64,000 nucleotides of DNA, taken from the NCBI GenBank assembly GCA_000091205.1, contig AP006494.2. One strand, given 5' to 3'. The position numbers and the translations under genes were made by a program. A model generated the notes under the pieces. That model was given only the letters and a program-made list of their open reading frames with translations, did not search any database and was not told the origin of the DNA. Source of the stretch: Cyanidioschyzon merolae. Taxonomy: Eukaryota. Positions 7,143 through 14,113 of the stretch are shown here, one piece after another. Position 1 is the first letter of the stretch. Every line of letters begins with the position of its first letter.

Positions 7143-7889
7143 ATGACAGAGAAAGCGTCGAAGAGGCAGAGCATCGCCGAAGCGCTGTTCGAACGGCGCC
7201 CGAAAAACTTTGGGATTGGTCAGAGTATCCAACCAAAGCGCGATCTTTCACGTTTTGTGCGCTGGCCGCGTTATGTTCGCCTCCAGCGACAGCGGAAAAT
7301 CCTTCTTCAGAGGCTGAAGGTACCGCCGGCGATTGCCCAGTTCCAGAAAACTGCGGACAAGAACTTGACGGACTCGCTGTTCCGTCTACTAGAACGTTAC
7401 CGGCCTGAGGAGAAAGTCGCCAAGCGACAACGCTTACAACAAGCCGCGGAGCGTGGTGAGACGAAACCTGACACCCCCAAGCCTATTTTCGTGAAGCACG
7501 GCGTCAACCATGTAACCGACTTGATCGAACAGAAAAAAGCCAAGCTCGTGATCATCGCGCACGACGTCGATCCAATCGAATTGGTCATGTGGATGCCAGC
7601 ACTCTGCCGCAAACTCGACATCCCCTACGTCATCGTGAAGGGCAAGGCGCGTCTGGGCGCACTGGTGCACTTGAAAACGGCGACGTGTCTGGCCGTCACC
7701 GGTGTCCACGACAGAGACCGCGCGGAGCTCTCGAAAATCATCGAAGTGTGCAAAATGCGCTTTAATGACCGATACGAAGAGATTCGAAGGCAATGGGGTG
7801 GTGGTGTGCTCGGAATCAAAAGTACCCACAAGTTAGAGAAACGACGGCGGGCGCTAGCCATCGAGGAAGCGAAACGCGCCCAGGCGTGA
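7143..7889 (+). CDS. RPL7A: 60S ribosomal protein L7a (eL8)
   Basis: Full-length colinear match to eL8: FERRPKNFGIGQSIQPKRDLSRFVRWPRYVRLQRQR...LVIIAHDVDPIELVMWMPALCRKLDIPYVIVKGKARLG...NDRYEEIRRQWGG. ATG start, no interruption. Confidence 0.95.
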   Translation: MTEKASKRQSIAEALFERRPKNFGIGQSIQPKRDLSRFVRWPRYVRLQRQRKILLQRLKVPPAIAQFQKTADKNLTDSLFRLLERYRPEEKVAKRQRLQQAAERGETKPDTPKPIFVKHGVNHVTDLIEQKKAKLVIIAHDVDPIELVMWMPALCRKLDIPYVIVKGKARLGALVHLKTATCLAVTGVHDRDRAELSKIIEVCKMRFNDRYEEIRRQWGGGVLGIKSTHKLEKRRRALAIEEAKRAQA

Positions 7890-7893
7890 ACGC

Positions 7894-10800
7894 TTAGGAG
7901 GTCAGCGTTCCCGCGTGAACTCGATCGAAAAAGGATCCCAGATCCTCTGCCTGAATGCCGTCCGCATACAACACCAAATCCATGGTTAGTGAAGATGCTA
8001 TCGACGCTGGTGCGTGCGACTCTATGCGCATATAAACACCATCCAGTGTAAGGAGGAGGGGGCTAGGCGCATTAGCGGGACGCATGATGCCGACAGCGTA
8101 AAGCGTTTCTGTGAAAGGTTCTAAAGCCCGCAAAAGATCCATGAAAGCTGCCACATCGATTGGCATTGTTCGCTGGAGGTGGAGGCGGCGGAATAGCCTG
8201 CCTCTGTTCGCAGCCGCTGGACGGTGTGCATCGCCAGCAGGTGCAGCGTCCTGCATCGCCTGTGCGGTGAGGCGCGGCAGTACACGCGAATCGGCATCAT
8301 GAGTGGGAGCTGTTGTTGTTGTTGTTGTCGTCGTCGTCGTCGCTTCTGCTTCACGCAGCCAAGGTCGATTGCGCCTGCGTACCCAGATTGCTGCAGGCTG
8401 CAGCCGGCCGTAGGGTGCACATATCACCCTGGCGTGCGGATTCCATCCACAGACGTGTTCCAGGATTTGCTGCAAACGCTCCGCAGGTACAACGTCCGAC
8501 TTGGTAAATACGACTGTGTCCGCACTGGCGACAAGCTGCTGCTGGATATGGTCTTGCGACCGGAAACGGAGGCAATCCACCGCACACACAACAGCATCGA
8601 CGCCGTCAAGCGGCTCGTCCGTCTCTAGGGCTAAGCGGAACGGACGCGGGTGCGATTCGAGACGGCTAGCGAGCGCTGCCTCGCTGACAGCTTCCAGCCG
8701 CTGGCGTTGCAGCAGAGTGCTCGGGCCTGGTGGCTCAAGTCGCCACGCCAGCAGGTCCTCGTGGGCGTTCAGCGCTCCAACCAGCGAGGTTTTGCCCGCC
8801 CCTGGCAAGCCGCAGACTGCCAGAATACCCTCATTCGCGGGTAGTGGTTCAACATCTCCCGGAACAAGTATACGCTCGTTCTGTTCGCTGTTTGCTTCTG
8901 AACGCTTTGCTTCACCCGTGATGAGTATCCACGGCGGTGCGACTCGCGATGAAAGGCGCTCGACAAAAGAGGGCGGTTGAGCGGCTGGCGGGGTCTTTCC
9001 GCCGGCCCGTGTGCTGTCCGTGTTCGGTACTAGCGACTCGAAGGGGTCTTCAAACTCGCTCCAGGCTTCCGTAAAGACGAGCTCTTCGTCGCGTAGGAGA
9101 CATTCATCCAACACTATCTGAATCCGCATCGCATCCAGATCTTCCCCGAGAAACACGATTTCACTGCAGCGATCGCCAAAGCGCTCATCCCATTGCAGCG
9201 GTCGCATTCTATCTTGCGAGTTCGGGGCGCTTGGCCACTGTTCCAGCGGTAGGGTAACGAGAAATCTTTGCCCACGTTTCAGGGTTATATTGTTTCCGAC
9301 CTGGCTCCATTCGAGAAAACTGTCCATCCGATTTGCTAACCATAGTTTTCCGACAGAGCGCAAGACACCGTGGAAGGTGCTAATGTCACTGATCTTGTCA
9401 AATAGGCGACGCGGATGAAAAGGACGGTTCGCTCTGTAAAGAAAACTCGTCTCGGGTCGCACGGTTTCCGTGCTGAAGCCTCGCTCCCATGGTCGCGTTC
9501 CACTGTACAGCGTCGCGAGGAATTGCTCGTTGCTGAACCGCGAGTCCCAAATAGGTCGCGCGGTACCTGCTGCTGACGACACCGCAGGAGCAGCGGGGTG
9601 CGTGGCACTGCCTCCGGTCGCTGCTCCGGGGCCCTTGGGTGCCGCTGCCTTTCCCGGATCATAACCTGCATCGGGTGCGGAGGCAGCGCCCCAGGATGCG
9701 GTGGCAGCTGTCGTCTCCTGTGACGCTGACGCCGCTGACGTCTCGGGTACCGTCGCTCTGGTGGCTGGCGTTGCAGCCGCTGTTGACGTGCCTACAGATG
9801 GTCCAGCCTTTGCTGAACTTTTTCCCGTACTCTGTGCTCTGTTCTCTGGCAATGCGGAACCGTATTTCTGGGAAGTTTTCGTCAGTTCCGTCGCAGCGAA
9901 AGAAGCAAGAACCCGGCGCCAGGTCGGCATCCAGAGCATCCGCTCCGGATCAAACGGTCGCTCGAGAATGCGCTCCAGGAGTGTTTGTGGCCATTCAGTA
10001 TTCGCGTGCATGAGAATCACCTGAGCCTCGCAGTTCAAGAGTCGAAGATAACGAAGTAGGTTCTGGAAAGAGGGCGTCGGGGCTGTACGGACCTCGGGAT
10101 CAGGACTTGCGTCCTGCGACTTGCGCATCGGCCGCACGTCCGCATCTGTCTCCCGACCAGGCATTTGTTGTTGGTTGTACACGACGACAAGGTTCGCATA
10201 CTCTATTTGATCCACCAGGAGCTGCACCAAATTATCAGCCTGTGCGTTACTTGCTGATCCCCGTTCCCGCTCCATAGCGGGTGGCCGTCGTGCTGACGCT
10301 CCATCGTTGTCGCCTGCACCTACATCTCCAGCTTCCACGCGCGATGCAGTTTTCTTCTCGTGCAGCAGCGTACCTCGGGATGGACTTGAGCCGTCCCGCG
10401 AAGTCTCCACGGTATCGCTCGTCGCGAGCGCTTGGTCAGCGTCGTTGTGGCTGATTTCCAGTCCAGTCCCGCCAGTTATACCCGTCGCTGTCGTTGGGAT
10501 GCGTTCCGAAGCCGGCGACGTCTGCGCTGTATTCTCAGGGCTATACGCGACAGACGCCGTTTCTTGTTGTCGCAGCGTCGGTGCGAATACCTCCGCAGCC
10601 GCCGCTGCATCGATGACGCTCACGAGCGCAAGAAGCTGCAGCGGCCACTCAACATGCGCAAGACTGTCGGCGATGGCATATGGCTCCTCTTTTTCAGGGC
10701 TGCAGACGATGAGGTAGTCCACACCGTACGCTGCCTGGACCTGAAACAGATTCACAGGGCTGGGTGCAGCTTCCACTGTTTGATCCGCAGCGCTCTGTAC

Positions 10801-11811
10801 CGCGGACCCGCTTTGCGCCTGACTAGCTCTTGGCGTGCGAGCTCGTCGTCTCATCAACTGGTCAATTTTGGGTCCGAGCTCATCCTGGTTCACACAGTTG
10901 TCGAGAACTTCAAAGTAGATATGGGTACCGATTAACGCGGAGCACAACGATGAAGGCAGAGATTCCGTGCACAGCGATGCATTAACCAGCCAGCCAGCTT
11001 CATCCTCATCCCAGACGAGTCCCAGCCGAGTTGCGAGTGTTGCCGGCAAAAGCACGCCCACGCGCGGCGGGCGCTCCTCCGGCTGCGGCGATCGTTGCAG
11101 CAACTGCTCCAGCAACGTTCCTAAAAGTCGCAAACGCGCGATATCATCTAGCCCGCTGAGCACCACGGTGGGCACCGGTGTACTTCGCAGCGTTCTCCGC
11201 TGTGTATCACTCTCCGCGGCCTGTGTGGGCTGACTTGTCTGTTGTGGTGGCCGTTGAGCAGCGCCCATGGCAGCTGCCTCTGCGCTCGCGTCTGGCGGGT
11301 CCGAACCCCCGCCGTCTGTAACATCAGCGCTCCACTGGAATGCAGGCAAAACGACCGCGAAGATCGTGCTAGTATTCCTCTGTAGAGCAACGTGGTGCAG
11401 AGAGCGACGCAGTGAGCGCTGGTTGAAAGCTACTGGTGCCGCTGCGAAAGAAGAGCGTGTTAGTGGGCGATGCTGAATGGGCCGCACCTCCCAGGCACGC
11501 CCTCGAGCATGCCTTGGGGTAAGCGTCCTCGGAACGCGACTGCTCCACTGCAATACCGTTCTTTTCTGTACTATCCTTTCCTGTGGGAATAGATATCCCG
11601 CATAAATGACTTGCCCCTGTAAAACAGGGGCGAACATGGGCAACATCAATGTACTCTTAGGGTCCTCTTCGTTTGCTGCGAACCGGCGAGCGCTGGTGAA
11701 GCCAACCTTCATGCGCGCTCCGCGAAGCGCACTGCCGCGCACCGGTCGACGCGATCCGATGCTTTGTGTAACCGCAGGTGCTTCGAGGTGCTTTCTTACG
11801 AGGTGCTCCAT
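7894..11811 (-). CDS. Large CobW/ZNG1-family (G3E P-loop GTPase) protein with an apparent tandem architecture: a degenerate CobW-like unit, a CobW_C-like domain, an intact P-loop unit (GLPGAGKTSL...ADTVVFTKSDVV) and a C-terminal CobW_C-like domain. Contains a poly-Thr tract. The start codon is uncertain.
   Basis: Walker A ILAVCGLPGAGKTSLVGAL followed by TKSD (an NKxD-like motif). CobW_C-like segments SFLYRANRPFHPRRLFDKI...EIVFLGEDLDAMRIQIVLDECLL. The annotated ATG at 11809-11811 lies inside the 127-bp tandem repeat, so the true start is probably downstream. Confidence 0.6.
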   Translation of the reverse strand: MEHLVRKHLEAPAVTQSIGSRRPVRGSALRGARMKVGFTSARRFAANEEDPKSTLMLPMFAPVLQGQVIYAGYLFPQERIVQKRTVLQWSSRVPRTLTPRHARGRAWEVRPIQHRPLTRSSFAAAPVAFNQRSLRRSLHHVALQRNTSTIFAVVLPAFQWSADVTDGGGSDPPDASAEAAAMGAAQRPPQQTSQPTQAAESDTQRRTLRSTPVPTVVLSGLDDIARLRLLGTLLEQLLQRSPQPEERPPRVGVLLPATLATRLGLVWDEDEAGWLVNASLCTESLPSSLCSALIGTHIYFEVLDNCVNQDELGPKIDQLMRRRARTPRASQAQSGSAVQSAADQTVEAAPSPVNLFQVQAAYGVDYLIVCSPEKEEPYAIADSLAHVEWPLQLLALVSVIDAAAAAEVFAPTLRQQETASVAYSPENTAQTSPASERIPTTATGITGGTGLEISHNDADQALATSDTVETSRDGSSPSRGTLLHEKKTASRVEAGDVGAGDNDGASARRPPAMERERGSASNAQADNLVQLLVDQIEYANLVVVYNQQQMPGRETDADVRPMRKSQDASPDPEVRTAPTPSFQNLLRYLRLLNCEAQVILMHANTEWPQTLLERILERPFDPERMLWMPTWRRVLASFAATELTKTSQKYGSALPENRAQSTGKSSAKAGPSVGTSTAAATPATRATVPETSAASASQETTAATASWGAASAPDAGYDPGKAAAPKGPGAATGGSATHPAAPAVSSAAGTARPIWDSRFSNEQFLATLYSGTRPWERGFSTETVRPETSFLYRANRPFHPRRLFDKISDISTFHGVLRSVGKLWLANRMDSFLEWSQVGNNITLKRGQRFLVTLPLEQWPSAPNSQDRMRPLQWDERFGDRCSEIVFLGEDLDAMRIQIVLDECLLRDEELVFTEAWSEFEDPFESLVPNTDSTRAGGKTPPAAQPPSFVERLSSRVAPPWILITGEAKRSEANSEQNERILVPGDVEPLPANEGILAVCGLPGAGKTSLVGALNAHEDLLAWRLEPPGPSTLLQRQRLEAVSEAALASRLESHPRPFRLALETDEPLDGVDAVVCAVDCLRFRSQDHIQQQLVASADTVVFTKSDVVPAERLQQILEHVCGWNPHARVICAPYGRLQPAAIWVRRRNRPWLREAEATTTTTTTTTTAPTHDADSRVLPRLTAQAMQDAAPAGDAHRPAAANRGRLFRRLHLQRTMPIDVAAFMDLLRALEPFTETLYAVGIMRPANAPSPLLLTLDGVYMRIESHAPASIASSLTMDLVLYADGIQAEDLGSFFDRVHAGTLTS

Positions 11812-12390
11812 TTGCTAGAGCACATGTGATGCGGTGTATTTCCTTCATACGGTATGGAGGAAGCGGGTATTGAAAATGTTGTTGCGAAATGATTGCAACC
11901 GCAGGTGCTTCGAGGTGCTTTCTTACGAGGTGCTCCATTTGCTAGAGCACATGTGATGCGGTGTATTTCCTTCATACGGTACGGAGGAAGCGGGTACTGA
12001 AAATGTTGTTGCGAAATGATTGCAACCGCAGGTGCTTCGAGGTGCTTTCTTACGAGTTGCTCCATTTGCTAGAGCACATGTGATGCGGTGTATTTCCTTC
12101 ATACGGTACGGAGGAAGCGGGTACTGAAAATGTTGTTGCGAAATGATTGCAACCGCAGGTGCTTCGAGGTGCTTTCTTACGAGTTGCTCCATTTGCTAGA
12201 GCACATGTGATGCGGTGTATTTCCTTCATACGGTACGGAGGAAGCGGGTACTGAAAATGTTGTTGCGAAATGATTGCAACCGCAGGTGCTTCGAGGTGCT
12301 TTCTTACGAGTTGCTCCATTTGCTAGAGCACGTGTGATGCGGTGTATTTCCTTCATAGGATATGGAGGGAGCAGGTATTGAAAATACTGT
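11771..12390. repeat. Tandem array of a 127-bp unit, about 4.9 copies, the last one diverged
   Basis: Unit accgcaggtgcttcgaggtgctttcttacgag(g/t)tgctccatttgctagagcacatgtgatgcggtgtatttccttcatacggta(t/c)ggaggaagcgggta(t/c)tgaaaatgttgttgcgaaatgattgca recurs at 11771, 11898, 12025, 12152 and 12279. Each unit carries an ATG-led ORF, MEQLVRKHLEAPAV... Confidence 0.9.
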
Positions 12391-14113
12391 TTCTAAATAA
12401 ATAACATTTCGATCGCTCTTGGGTTCACGGAGACATCCTTGGACAGGGATACTTTTCGCGATTGATCGCAGTGTTTACAGACGTCTTTCAAAATACATGA
12501 CTTCCAATATCGACCGACTATCGCGTCAGCCACAAAGCACCGGAAAGTGTCACTGTGTGCATGTAGTGCATGGACCCCACGTCTCGCGTTAAGGACCCTG
12601 CTTATCCACTGGGCATTGAGTCGAGCACTCGCCCATTCGGAGGCCCAGTATACGCAGAGCAATGGCACATTCACTGCGAACGCCGATGTTCGTAGCGCTC
12701 TGAGCACAGTGTCGGAGGCCCTTTCTGCCGATGCTCGGTGCCTCGACGACCTCCACAAGCACACAGGGCAATTGTGGAATCCCGCCTCGTCGGTGGAATA
12801 TACGAGTCATTGCCATCTACAATCTGTTGCTGCATTCGCGAGCATATGAGAAGCCTATGCAAGCGGCATCTGTCTACGAGCAGAGGGCACTGGGCCCTGG
12901 ACACTCGCTGGTGCAAGTTCTTCGACACGATGGCAACTTGTGCTTCGATGCGTCGTCTCCGGATCTCAGAACGCGCTCGCTGCGGACGCTTCGGGCAGCA
13001 CTCCACACGTACTTAGCTGAGAATACGGCTTCAATGGTATGCGGGGTCGCTATATCGCCTTCATAGAACTCCGGGCTTCAAGTCACCGTGTTTATAAGCC
13101 CTAAAGAAATTGCTACAATGTTTTCGTTCGCACACCTCAGAGTATGCCAGTCTTTGCGGTGCGTCGTGTCCCGCACTGAGCGACGAATAGACCAACAACA
13201 TGGAGATCTTGTACTCGTGTGTGTATGTACTTGGTACGTGCTTCTGAGGATCTAGTCCGAGTCACTGGCAGGAACGATATCGATAGAAGGCCAACACCAT
13301 TTCGACTAAGCCAAGTAGAGTGTCACGAAAGAGAATCCTTCTGAACTGGAGACTCCTAGCCTGGCTACAGCCAATGTTGGGCGTTTCGTTCTTGGACGCA
13401 GCGCGCCTTATATGCCGGTAACGCATTCCCAACTGCATTACCGACTCTGAACCCGGAGCGTTTTATACTCCATAATGCAAAACGCAAACGACAGCGCCAC
13501 TCCAAACGGATGCAGCTCCGAAAAAGCGTGAGTTCCACGTACCGATTCTCATCTGGTATACAGCGACGCGCTCTGAACATCTCGCGGCGTACCCGAGTGG
13601 GTCCTTCGAATGACGATGACGATGCACTAGTCTTTAGACAGTCACAGGGACCTGTAGTAGAGCATCGCGCAAAACAGGAAGCGCTTTCCGAGCAGCACAA
13701 GAGTCGGCGATCCAGCCTGATCGAACGGGCCTCGGTAGCAAACGCCGGTTATGTCGATGACGATAGCCATCGCACCCGTAATCATGGAAATCGTGGAAAT
13801 CTCCTCTTCCGGACACTGTTTGCATTGCTCCATCAAAGCGAAACACCAGCTGATATGAATTGCTCTCGTGATGCGTGACGTGAACGCTCCTCTCGAGAGG
13901 CAGCACACATCCGGTGCAACCTCGAAAGCGTTCCGGCCGCTCTCAAGGCGGTGTTGTTAAGCAACCACCCGATCGTTGCGATAGCGCGTATCCGCATACC
14001 GGTGTGCTTCTGTGGCCCGTCGAGAATCAATTCATGTGGACTGACGGTAGCTTCGGCGCGCAAGCTGTCGGGAAATCGGACGCAAAGTTCGCGTTACCAA
14101 ATCGATCACCGCT

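What the first reader, a model, noticed from the sequence alone, without database searches (positions are those of the whole stretch)
7894..11811. Unusually large tandem CobW/ZNG1-type GTPase with a degenerate first P-loop and a coding poly-Thr microsatellite
A CobW-like module with a degraded P-loop (PTVVLSGLDDIARLRLLGTLL in place of GFLGAGKTTLL) and the switch-like VSVIDAAAAAEVF...LVVVYNQQQM is followed by a CobW_C-like domain. A second module follows with an intact Walker A (GLPGAGKTSL), the TKSD motif, and another CobW_C-like tail. CobW/ZNG1 proteins are normally ~350-450 aa single modules. A pseudo-GTPase plus GTPase fusion would be an unusual metallochaperone architecture. A (GTT/GTC)n tract at 8313-8345 encodes ten consecutive Thr residues, TTTTTTTTTT.
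Basis: inference. Interest (0 to 1): 0.5.

Follow-up and report, generated by a model that had tools for sequence, protein, structure and literature searches.

The report
Red-algal double CobW protein, mostly degenerate
This gene of the red alga Cyanidioschyzon merolae encodes two CobW/ZNG-type metal-chaperone GTPase modules fused head to tail. The first is an ancient dead GTPase, and the second has lost its metal-binding site in this lineage, so the protein is a real, red-alga-wide fusion that apparently has not been described and probably no longer works as a classical metal chaperone here.

Summary
Window 7894-11811 (-) is one uninterrupted 1305-codon ORF, identical to an annotated C. merolae 10D "hypothetical protein, conserved".

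The layout is presequence, pseudo-G domain, CobW_C, G domain, degenerate CobW_C. Profile-profile comparison shows that module 1 is a full COG0523 G domain (99.8 %, E 5e-30) lacking Walker A, ExxG and NKxD.

The same tandem layout occurs in Cyanidiococcus-like metagenome contigs, where the convergent RPL7a neighbour is also conserved. It also occurs in Galdieria, Compsopogon and Porphyridium. The fusion is therefore real and old, not an annotation artefact.

In those other red algae module 2 is canonical (GCICC, ETTG, SKTD, His-rich linker, RAKG). In the Cyanidioschyzon clade it keeps only the P-loop and TKSD. It has lost about 45 residues including switch I and CxCC, the G3 glycine, the His-rich linker (now poly-Thr) and the CTD arginine finger.

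The true start is probably Met56, which gives an F-type plastid transit peptide. The annotated start lies inside a 127-bp tandem repeat.

Best reading: a plastid-targeted nucleotide-binding scaffold or adaptor derived from a ZNG-like chaperone. This is a new variant of a known kind, of moderate interest.

The parts
7894..11811 (-). Annotated ORF, 1305 aa (stop codon at 7894-7896)
   Evidence: It is identical to the C. merolae 10D protein P0001.
11644..11646 (-). Probable true start codon (Met56), giving a 1250-aa protein
   Evidence: MLPMFAPV aligns residue for residue with the first Met of the orthologues, MISSFIPV (P0002) and MIPTFIPA (P0004). In L001 a stop codon lies two codons upstream of that Met. 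This is an inference.
11362..11646 (-). Poorly conserved presequence (aa 56-150) with an N-terminal M-x-x-x-F-x-P motif; putative red-algal plastid transit peptide
   Evidence: The F-based motif is described in PMC7038456. Localisation was not tested.
11320..11361 (-). Conserved motif FAVVLPAFQWSADV (aa 151-164) ahead of module 1
   Evidence: It is conserved in P0002 and P0004.
9877..11181 (-). Module 1 pseudo-G domain (aa 211-645), with three low-complexity insertions (about aa 331-355, 413-522, 551-580)
   Evidence: hhalign against canonical COG0523 G domains gives 99.8 % probability, E 4.9e-30. AlphaFold pLDDT is 75-89 in the core blocks and below 50 in the insertions.
11131..11154 (-). Walker A position of module 1: GLDDIARL instead of GxxGxGKT
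   Evidence: It is degenerate in all orthologues.
10168..10179 (-). G4 position of module 1: YNQQ instead of NKxD
9022..9456 (-). CTD1, a ZNG/ZigA-type CobW_C domain (aa 786-930) and the best conserved part of the protein
   Evidence: Pfam CobW_C scores 55.7 bits. hhalign gives 100 % probability, E 1e-52. Identity is 85 % to P0002 and 68 % to P0003.
9349..9360 (-). RSVG (aa 818-821) on beta2 of CTD1: the RxKG arginine-finger motif with Arg kept and Lys replaced by Val
   Evidence: R, S and G are invariant in the seven aligned tandem proteins and match in every family member carrying CTD1 in the motif scan. The role of the motif is described in PMC13001444.
8371..8841 (-). Module 2 reduced G domain (aa 991-1147)
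   Evidence: Pfam cobW scores 32.7 bits. hhalign gives 99.3 % probability but over only 79 columns. The P-loop-to-G4 distance is 102 aa, against 146-154 aa in the canonical orthologues.
8788..8811 (-). Intact Walker A of module 2, GLPGAGKT (aa 1001-1008)
8494..8505 (-). G4 motif of module 2, TKSD (aa 1103-1106)
8311..8340 (-). Poly-Thr tract (aa 1158-1167), encoded (ACG)4(ACA)6, in the disordered linker between G2 and CTD2
   Evidence: The same position holds a poly-Gln run in P0002 and a His/Asp-rich stretch in Compsopogon and P0008. pLDDT is below 50.
7912..8205 (-). CTD2, a degenerate CobW_C-fold tail (aa 1203-1300); YAVG (aa 1238-1241) on beta2 replaces RxKG
11767..12401 (.). 127-bp tandem repeat, about 5 copies, immediately upstream; its last partial copy holds the annotated ATG
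7143..7889 (+). Convergent 60S ribosomal protein L7a gene, whose stop lies 4 bp from the stop of this gene (conserved neighbour)
   Evidence: The same tail-to-tail pair occurs in L001/L002 and L003.

Best explanation
**What it is (shown).** This is the C. merolae orthologue of a red-alga-wide two-module COG0523 (CobW/ZNG-type G3E) protein. The order of parts is presequence, pseudo-G domain, ZNG-type CobW_C (CTD1), linker, G domain, linker, CobW_C (CTD2).

- Module 1 lost every nucleotide-binding motif before the red-algal classes diverged. Its CTD1 remains the most constrained part of the protein.
- Module 2 is a canonical metal-binding GTPase in Galdieria, Compsopogon and Porphyridium.
- In the Cyanidioschyzon/Cyanidiococcus clade module 2 keeps only the P-loop, the Walker B Glu and the guanine-specificity motif TKSD. 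It has lost switch I, the CxCC metal site, the G3 glycine, the His-rich linker (now poly-Thr) and the CTD arginine finger.

**How it most likely works (inferred).**
- The protein is imported into the plastid through an F-type transit peptide that starts at Met56.
- In C. merolae it no longer transfers metal by the classical GTP-hydrolysis-coupled CxCC mechanism.
- Module 2 probably still binds a guanine nucleotide between G2 and CTD2 as a structural or sensing ligand. Shulin/DNAAF9, whose YjiA-like C1-C2 pair is held together by GTP, is the precedent.
- The conserved pseudo-module, CTD1 above all, probably provides the partner-binding or adaptor surface. Nucleotide-blind COG0523-like proteins such as mycobacterial Mrf are the precedent.
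For: - **Architecture and orthology.**
  - The exhaustive phmmer search finds full-length collinear relatives, which name as red-algal.
  - Alignments A1 and A4 show the motif states.
  - Pfam on the orthologues gives a full cobW plus two CobW_C stretches.
  - The Pfam hits precomputed for the Galdieria gene read cobW, CobW_C, cobW, CobW_C.
  - Synteny with the convergent RPL7a gene is conserved.
- **Module 1 is a G-domain homologue.** hhalign gives 99.8 % probability, E 4.9e-30.
- **Module 2 is reduced.** The P-loop-to-G4 spacing is 102 aa against 146-154 aa. AlphaFold confidence between the P-loop helix and the Walker B strand is 35-51, against 84-96 in the rest of the core.
- **The tail has the CobW_C fold.**
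- **Constraint.** G2 and CTD2 are 50-52 % identical to P0002 without gaps, against 24-40 % in the linkers. CTD1 is 85 % identical.
- **Precedents.** Shulin binds a structural nucleotide between YjiA-like domains. Mrf acts as a zinc-responsive ribosome-binding adaptor. A Walker-A-less COG0523-like protein was noted in M. tuberculosis.
- **Plastid targeting.** The N-terminal M-x-x-x-F-x-P motif is shared with the orthologues and fits F-based targeting in rhodophytes.
Against: - There is no experimental evidence of any kind: no expression, localisation, nucleotide-binding or metal-binding data.
- An intact P-loop, Walker B Glu and TKSD would also fit a slow but real GTPase.
- Loss of switch I could instead abolish Mg-GTP binding altogether.
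- The AlphaFold models rest on shallow alignments (15 and 51 sequences). No coordinates or PAE were available, so inter-domain geometry could not be examined.
- The transit-peptide reading rests on a short motif, and codon-usage analysis could not settle the start codon.
Confidence: 0.5

Rival explanations
1. It is a working metallochaperone. Module 2 hydrolyses GTP and delivers Zn (or another metal) to a client, using ligands other than CxCC, and module 1 acts as a regulatory pseudo-GTPase.
For: - The P-loop, Walker B Glu and TKSD are retained.
- The orthologues in other red algae have a fully canonical module 2, with GCICC and a His-rich linker.
- The whole COG0523 family is tied to metal homeostasis.
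Against: - Neither module has a CxCC motif.
- The His-rich linker is replaced by poly-Thr.
- Switch I is deleted and the G3 Gly is Glu.
- The Arg and Lys shown to be essential for GTPase activity in ZigA and MigC are absent from CTD2.
- No alternative Cys/His cluster stood out on reading the Cm, P0002 and P0003 module 2 sequences. Only the single Cys of VDC(L/A)RF is shared by all three.
Confidence: 0.2
2. It is an intramolecular pseudo-dimer with domain-swapped self-GAP. The dead G1 pairs with G2 in the way G3E GTPases dimerise. The conserved Arg818 of CTD1, which lies just upstream of G2, serves as the arginine finger for G2 and replaces the finger lost from CTD2.
For: - The Arg of R-S-x-G in CTD1 is invariant in the aligned orthologues, although G1 cannot bind nucleotide.
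- CTD2 of the Cyanidioschyzon clade lacks the Arg.
- A COG0523 CTD added in trans can rescue GTPase activity in ZigA and MigC.
Against: - The catalytic Lys of RxKG is not conserved in CTD1 (V, I, K, T, R, Q).
- The Arg is also kept in stand-alone bacterial-looking P-loop-less homologues. It has a proposed structural salt bridge in the open state, so its conservation does not require GAP function.
- G2 lacks switch I and the G3 Gly.
Confidence: 0.15
3. It is a decaying relic. After the Cyanidioschyzon lineage acquired or retained another canonical COG0523 (CML113C), module 2, or the whole gene, drifted towards loss of function.
For: - Module 2 has lost most of its functional motifs only in this clade.
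- C. merolae has a canonical COG0523, CML113C.
- A CobW orthologue is listed as an HGT candidate in the Cyanidioschyzon lineage.
- There are large low-complexity insertions.
Against: - A 1305-codon ORF stays open in C. merolae, and equivalent ORFs stay open in P0002 and P0003.
- G2 and CTD2 align without gaps at about 50 % identity, against 24-40 % in the linkers.
- CTD1 is 85 % identical.
- The P-loop and TKSD/SKSD/AKTD are kept in all three divergent clade members.
Confidence: 0.1
4. It is an annotation or assembly artefact: two neighbouring genes read as one because of a missed stop or intron.
For: Pfam on the C. merolae sequence alone shows CobW_C before a partial cobW, which looks out of order.
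Against: - The reading frame is uninterrupted.
- The same collinear four-domain protein occurs in independent genomes, metagenomes and a transcriptome.
- The linker regions align between Cm and P0002.
Confidence: 0.02

Closest known systems
COG0523 / CobW-ZNG family of G3E P-loop GTPase metallochaperones (YjiA, ZigA, ZNG1, CobW)
   Same: Both modules descend from this family. The G-domain fold and CobW_C fold are present. hhalign probabilities are 99.3-100 %. YjiA is the top Foldseek hit in the PDB. CTD1 carries the family's RPFHP, R-x-x-G, FGDR and DPF signatures.
   Different: Members described so far are single modules of about 320-450 aa. Here two modules are fused. Module 1 has no Walker A, ExxG, NKxD or CxCC. 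Module 2 of C. merolae has no switch I, CxCC or G3 Gly, and its CTD has no RxKG. All NCBIfam equivalog scores are far below cutoff (126 against 600 for ZigA; none for module 2 alone).
ZNG2 / pTAC17, the plastid-localised COG0523 of Archaeplastida (PMC10642216)
   Same: Both show plastid targeting (inferred here) and a presence in Archaeplastida. Module 2 of Compsopogon and P0008 has a long His/Asp/Glu-rich stretch between the G domain and the CTD, as described for AtZNG2A1 and AtZNG2A2.
   Different: ZNG2 proteins are single modules with conserved GTPase and CxCC motifs. The paper mentions no tandem form. The C. merolae protein lacks the His stretch and CxCC. The phylogenetic placement of module 2 relative to ZNG2 was not tested.
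Walker-A-less COG0523-like proteins (the M. tuberculosis outgroup of Haas 2009; mycobacterial Mrf, NCBIfam NF047431)
   Same: Module 1, like these, has a COG0523 fold without Walker A or a canonical CxCC and keeps a conserved CTD. Mrf acts as a zinc-responsive ribosome-binding adaptor rather than a demonstrated GTPase. Many similar stand-alone proteins appear among the 150 best hits.
   Different: Those are stand-alone, bacterial-looking proteins of about 375-430 aa. Module 1 is no closer to them than to canonical G domains (hhalign E 4.6e-24 against 4.9e-30). The NF047431 score is 95-115 bits against a cutoff of 375.
Shulin / DNAAF9 C1-C2 domains (PDB 6zyw_Y)
   Different: Sequence identity is only 11 %. 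Shulin has Spt16-like N-terminal domains and a dynein-binding role in ciliated eukaryotes. No such domains are detected here. The resemblance may reflect the closed conformation of the model.

Membership tests
COG0523 (CobW/ZNG-type G3E GTPase), module 1 | Walker A / G1 motif GxxGxGK[TS] | tested here: not met
   GLDDIARL occupies the aligned position. The motif is degenerate in every orthologue.
COG0523, module 1 | CxCC metal-binding motif, Walker B ExxG and G4 NKxD | tested here: not met
   A single Cys is left at the CxCC position. The Walker B position reads DYLIVCSPEKEEP and the G4 position reads YNQQ.
COG0523, module 1 | Homology of the whole G domain and presence of a CobW_C domain | tested here: met
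   hhalign gives 99.8 % probability, E 4.9e-30 over 241 columns. Pfam CobW_C scores 55.7 bits against a cutoff of 22.
COG0523, module 1 | Invariant RxKG on beta2 of the CTD (PMC13001444) | tested here: inconclusive
   The motif reads RSVG: Arg and Gly are kept and Lys is replaced by Val. Lys is variable across the orthologues.
COG0523, module 2 | Walker A and G4 [NTS]KxD | tested here: met
   GLPGAGKT at aa 1001-1008 and TKSD at aa 1103-1106. Pfam cobW scores 32.7 bits against a cutoff of 20.7.
COG0523, module 2 | Switch I / G2 segment and CxCC motif between Walker A and Walker B | tested here: not met
   About 45 residues are missing relative to the Galdieria, Compsopogon and Porphyridium orthologues. 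No C.CC pattern occurs in the protein.
COG0523, module 2 | Walker B / G3 ExxG | tested here: not met
   The motif reads ETDE in C. merolae, ETDW in P0002 and ESCH in P0003. Glu is kept and Gly is lost.
COG0523, module 2 | CobW_C domain with RxKG | tested here: inconclusive
ZNG1 | Canonical GTPase plus CxCC motifs; cytosolic; N-terminal extension binding MAP1 | tested here: not met
   The motifs are absent (see the COG0523 rows). The MAP1-binding extension was not examined. The N-terminus looks like a plastid presequence.
ZNG2 / pTAC17 | Single-module plastid COG0523 with conserved GTPase and CxCC motifs and a His-rich G-CTD linker; membership of a monophyletic clade | tested here: not met
   The motifs and the His-rich linker are absent from the C. 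merolae protein. They are present in module 2 of the other red-algal orthologues. Clade membership and localisation were not tested.
Mrf (NCBIfam NF047431) | Score at or above the curated cutoff of 375 bits | tested here: not met
   The score is 95 bits for C. merolae and 115 bits for Compsopogon module 1.
Shulin / DNAAF9 | Spt16-like N-terminal and PH-like middle domains preceding the YjiA-like C1-C2 pair | tested here: not met
   Pfam finds no such domains in aa 1-990. Only the structural similarity of module 2 is found.

The most novel reading that the evidence does not exclude
The red-algal tandem protein is a covalently linked G3E pseudo-dimer. A permanently nucleotide-free COG0523 module regulates the live module, and its conserved CTD1 arginine (Arg818 here) supplies the finger in trans to G2. 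In the Cyanidioschyzon clade this swapped arrangement became obligatory, after CTD2 lost its own finger and G2 lost its metal site. That would turn a metal chaperone into a pure nucleotide-gated plastid switch or adaptor.
Probability: 0.15. Interest if true: 0.65.

Novelty: new variant of a known kind. Interest (0 to 1): 0.45.

Why it matters
COG0523 proteins are the least understood nucleotide-dependent metallochaperones. Only in 2026 was their C-terminal domain shown to act as a built-in GAP through an RxKG arginine finger.

A lineage-wide natural fusion offers a set of natural mutants for asking what each part contributes. It combines three states:
- a dead G domain with a highly conserved CTD;
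- a live module in most red algae;
- a clade (Cyanidioschyzon and Cyanidiococcus) in which the live module has shed the metal site, switch I and its own finger.

C. merolae is well suited to the experiments. From general knowledge, it is genetically tractable by homologous recombination and has very few paralogues.

The finding also points to a plastid-directed COG0523 function in red algae, distinct from the single-module ZNG2 of green plants. It corrects the annotated start codon. It shows as well that 'CobW domain protein' annotation does not imply metal-chaperone activity.

Tried and rejected
- **Word-indexed homology search with the full protein.** It returned only the protein itself, apparently because low-complexity words filled the 8000-candidate limit.
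- **The same search with module 2 alone.** It returned nothing.
- **The same search with a trimmed module 1 alignment.** It returned only five proteins. The exhaustive representative search was what found the family.
- **phmmer against PDB sequences.** The full protein and CTD1 gave nothing. Module 2 gave only a marginal YjiA hit (E 0.09).
- **BLASTP of module 1 against module 2.** There was no significant similarity, so a recent internal duplication is rejected.
- **Origin of module 1.** I asked whether it derives from the bacterial Walker-A-less COG0523-like proteins. It is no closer to them than to canonical G domains, so the origin is left open.
- **Codon-usage log-odds along the ORF, to locate the start.** The signal in this genome is too weak, so the result is inconclusive.
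- **Search for a second COG0523 gene in the window.** None was found.
- **dN/dS within the P0002 cluster.** The members differ by one residue, so they are uninformative. Cm against P0002 would be saturated, so per-region identity was used instead.
- **AFDB fold search.** The library was unavailable.
- **Model coordinates and PAE.** They are not exposed, so G1-G2 and CTD1-G2 contacts could not be measured.

Full report
**1. The observation.** Window 7894-11811 on the minus strand is a single open reading frame of 1305 codons. It is 100 % identical over its full length to a protein of Cyanidioschyzon merolae strain 10D annotated 'hypothetical protein, conserved'. From general knowledge, this red alga has very few introns, so a single-exon gene of this size is ordinary here.

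- the degenerate P-loop region PTVVLSGLDDIARLRLLGTLL (aa 214-234);
- VSVIDAAAAAEVF (aa 397-409);
- LVVVYNQQQM (aa 541-550);
- GLPGAGKT (aa 1001-1008);
- TKSD (aa 1103-1106);
- ten consecutive Thr (aa 1158-1167), encoded (ACG)4(ACA)6 at window 8311-8340.

**2. Domain content in C. merolae alone.** Pfam on the whole protein reports only CobW_C at aa 789-905 (55.7 bits) and the C-terminal third of a cobW G domain at aa 1070-1130. NCBIfam gives ZigA and MRF hits far below their cutoffs.

Piecewise scans add the following:
- Module 1 with its low-complexity insertions removed scores 18.1 bits on cobW, just under the gathering threshold.
- The module 2 G region scores 32.7 bits.
- The C-terminal 138 residues and the N-terminal 210 residues match nothing.

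The two modules are not detectably similar to each other, so this is not a recent internal duplication.

**3. Orthologues.** An exhaustive phmmer search with aa 200-1305 found 1621 relatives. At the top is a set of long proteins with the same collinear layout. Source names identify them as follows:
- P0002/P0151/P0152: 1230 aa, from JGI and Logan metagenomes.
- P0003: 955 aa, from an ENA metagenome.
- P0004: Cyanidiococcus yangmingshanensis F1559_003833, N-terminal part only.
- P0005/P0153: Galdieria sulphuraria Gasu_41680 and GJD12509.
- P0007: Compsopogon caeruleus, transcriptome-derived.
- P0013: Porphyridium purpureum KAA8498306.
- P0155: a partial MMETSP transcript.

P0002 and P0003 sit tail to tail with a ribosomal protein L7a gene, exactly as in the window. 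The gaps between the stop codons are 4 bp, 4 bp and 18 bp.

The Pfam hits precomputed in the contig index for the Galdieria gene read cobW, CobW_C, cobW, CobW_C. In Porphyridium a paralogue containing only the pseudo-G domain and CTD (P0010) lies immediately upstream of the tandem gene. The fusion is therefore real, old, and at least as wide as Cyanidiophyceae, Compsopogonophyceae and Porphyridiophyceae. None of the other long proteins I inspected among the best 150 hits had the tandem form.

**4. Module 1 is an ancient pseudo-GTPase.** A profile of ten module 1 G regions matches a profile of 26 canonical COG0523 G domains at 99.8 % probability (E 4.9e-30), over 241 columns spanning the whole domain.

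In that alignment the motif positions read as follows, in every orthologue:
- Walker A GFLGAGKT is GLDDIARL.
- NGCICC is reduced to one Cys.
- The Walker B strand DYLvvEstG is DYLIVCSPE.
- NKxD is YNQQ.

AlphaFold folds the core blocks confidently (pLDDT 75-89) and leaves three insertions disordered.

CTD1 that follows is a standard ZNG/ZigA-type CobW_C (hhalign E 1e-52). It is the most constrained part of the protein, at 85 % identity to P0002 and 68 % to P0003.

A 2026 preprint showed that the only invariant CTD motif, RxKG on beta2, acts as an arginine finger that activates the tethered G domain. CTD1 keeps Arg and Gly (RSVG, aa 818-821), but the Lys is variable across the family.

**5. Module 2 is canonical in most red algae but reduced in the Cyanidioschyzon clade.** In Galdieria, Compsopogon, P0008 and Porphyridium, module 2 has GFLGxGKT, the IAVxVNEFGE switch I block, NGCICC, VETTG, SKTD, a His/Asp-rich linker and RAKG in CTD2. 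Pfam cobW scores are 179-206 bits.

In C. merolae, P0002 and P0003 the state is different:
- The P-loop (GxPGAGK[TS]) and G4 (TKSD, SKSD, AKTD) remain.
- The P-loop-to-G4 distance is 102-103 aa in C. merolae and P0002, against 146-154 aa in the canonical orthologues.
- The switch I and CxCC segment is gone.
- ETTG has become ETDE, ETDW or ESCH.
- The His-rich linker is replaced by poly-Thr (Cm), by poly-Gln (P0002), or is absent (P0003).
- beta2 of the tail reads YAVG, YATG or YAKG instead of RAKG.

The AlphaFold model of aa 960-1305 is confident for the G core (pLDDT 84-96) but not for the segment replacing switch I and CxCC (35-51). It gives the tail the beta1-alpha1-beta2-beta3-beta4-beta5-alpha2 order described for CobW_C.

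By sequence, the C. merolae tail is not recognisable as CobW_C. The orthologous P0003 tail passes the Pfam threshold (23.9 bits). Together these support a degenerate CobW_C.

G2 and the tail are about 50 % identical to P0002 without gaps, against 24-40 % for the linkers. They are therefore still constrained, though less than CTD1.

**6. N-terminus.** The annotated ATG (11811) lies in the last partial copy of a 127-bp tandem repeat of about five copies at 11767-12401. The repeat occurs nowhere else in the window.

From Met56, the sequence MLPMFAPV aligns residue for residue with the first Met of the orthologues, MISSFIPV and MIPTFIPA. The distance to the conserved VVLPAFQWSAD motif is the same within a few residues (98, 95 and 99 aa). 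In the P0002 contig a stop codon lies two codons upstream of that Met.

An N-terminal Phe-based motif is the hallmark of plastid targeting sequences in rhodophytes. I therefore infer that translation starts at ATG 11644-11646 and that the product is imported into the plastid. Codon-usage scoring could not confirm or refute this.

**7. Mechanism.**

Shown:
- The architecture.
- The loss of all nucleotide motifs in module 1.
- The lineage-specific loss of the metal site, switch I, the G3 Gly, the His-rich linker and the CTD finger in module 2.
- The retention of the P-loop, the Walker B Glu and G4.

Inferred:
- In C. merolae the protein cannot run the classical COG0523 cycle, in which GTP hydrolysis, activated by the CTD finger, is coupled to metal handling at CxCC.
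- The retained P-loop and guanine-specificity motif suggest that nucleotide is still bound, most plausibly as a structural or sensing ligand between G2 and CTD2. Shulin is the precedent.
- The strongly conserved pseudo-module, CTD1 above all, is the likely partner-binding surface.
- Nucleotide-blind COG0523-like proteins are not unprecedented. Haas et al. noted one in M. tuberculosis. Mycobacterial Mrf works as a zinc-responsive ribosome-binding adaptor. Many stand-alone P-loop-less relatives turned up among the top hits.
- In the other red algae the same protein probably is a plastid metal chaperone (module 2) with a built-in regulatory or adaptor pseudo-module. Module 2 there resembles plant ZNG2 in its His-rich linker and in its inferred location. 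Clade membership was not tested.

**8. Rivals.**
- A working chaperone that uses non-CxCC ligands is possible, but no conserved Cys/His cluster stood out when I read the alignment.
- A trans-acting CTD1 arginine finger with a G1-G2 pseudo-dimer is attractive, given trans-rescue by CTDs. It is weakened by the variable Lys and by retention of the Arg in stand-alone pseudo-GTPases.
- Gene decay is argued against by the open frame in three divergent clade members and by domain-over-linker conservation. Relaxation may still relate to the canonical COG0523 CML113C in C. merolae and to a CobW orthologue listed as an HGT candidate in this lineage.
- A merged-gene artefact is excluded (see section 3).

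**9. Novelty and verdict.** Full-text searches for tandem or pseudo-GTPase COG0523 proteins, and for CobW in Cyanidioschyzon, found no description of this architecture. The ZNG1/ZNG2 survey mentions only 'some red algal genomes'; the only C. merolae entry found in its supplements, one of which is truncated as stored, is the canonical CML113C.

The components are all known kinds, and domain scans already display the four-domain layout for Galdieria. This is therefore a new variant of a known kind, not a new category. Its interpretation is right about the pseudo-GTPase plus GTPase fusion but too generous about module 2 and about metallochaperone function in this species. Interest is moderate (0.45).

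Noticed in passing
window 11767-12401: A 127-bp tandem repeat of about 5 copies (93-100 % identical) lies directly upstream of the gene and occurs nowhere else in the window. Each copy contains an ATG opening a short ORF (MEQLVRKHLEAPAV...), and the annotated start codon of the gene lies in the last partial copy. It could be a promoter or 5'-UTR element; its function is unknown.
   Followed up: partly
window 11644-11811: The annotated N-terminus (aa 1-55) is probably not translated. Met56 (MLPMFAPV) aligns exactly with the first Met of the orthologues and gives an F-type red-algal plastid presequence.
   Followed up: yes
window 7143-7896; L001 9693-9698; L003 3543-3562: The 60S ribosomal protein L7a gene converges on this gene with only 4 bp between the two stop codons, so the 3' UTRs must overlap. 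The same tail-to-tail pair, with 4 bp and 18 bp gaps, is conserved in two related Cyanidiales contigs.
   Followed up: partly
L004 5179-7473 and 8001-11600: In Porphyridium purpureum a 764-aa paralogue with only the pseudo-G domain and CobW_C (KAA8498307) lies immediately upstream, on the same strand, of the 1199-aa tandem gene (KAA8498306). This is a local duplication of the pseudo-module.
   Followed up: partly
proteins P0029, P0032, P0036, P0058, P0061, P0088, P0105, P0120, P0134, P0149; P0044, P0045, P0054: Many full-length, bacterial-looking COG0523-like proteins among the best 150 hits have neither a P-loop nor CxCC but keep R-x-[KR]-G in the CTD. Three of them add a His-rich stretch and a C-terminal extension of about 250-300 aa. 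Loss of the P-loop seems recurrent in this family.
   Followed up: partly
outside the window (C. merolae CML113C, UniProt M1V8L0): C. merolae also has a canonical single-module COG0523, listed in the supplement of PMC10642216. An eLife 2019 paper lists a CobW orthologue as an HGT candidate in the Cyanidioschyzon lineage. It might have made module 2 of the tandem protein dispensable. I did not check whether the two reports concern the same gene.
   Followed up: no
window 8311-8340 and the equivalent linker in the orthologues: The G2-CTD2 linker is a hotspot for homopolymer turnover. It holds poly-Thr in C. merolae, poly-Gln in P0002, and His/Asp/Glu-rich runs in Compsopogon and P0008. P0003 instead ends in a poly-Gln run.
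   Followed up: yes
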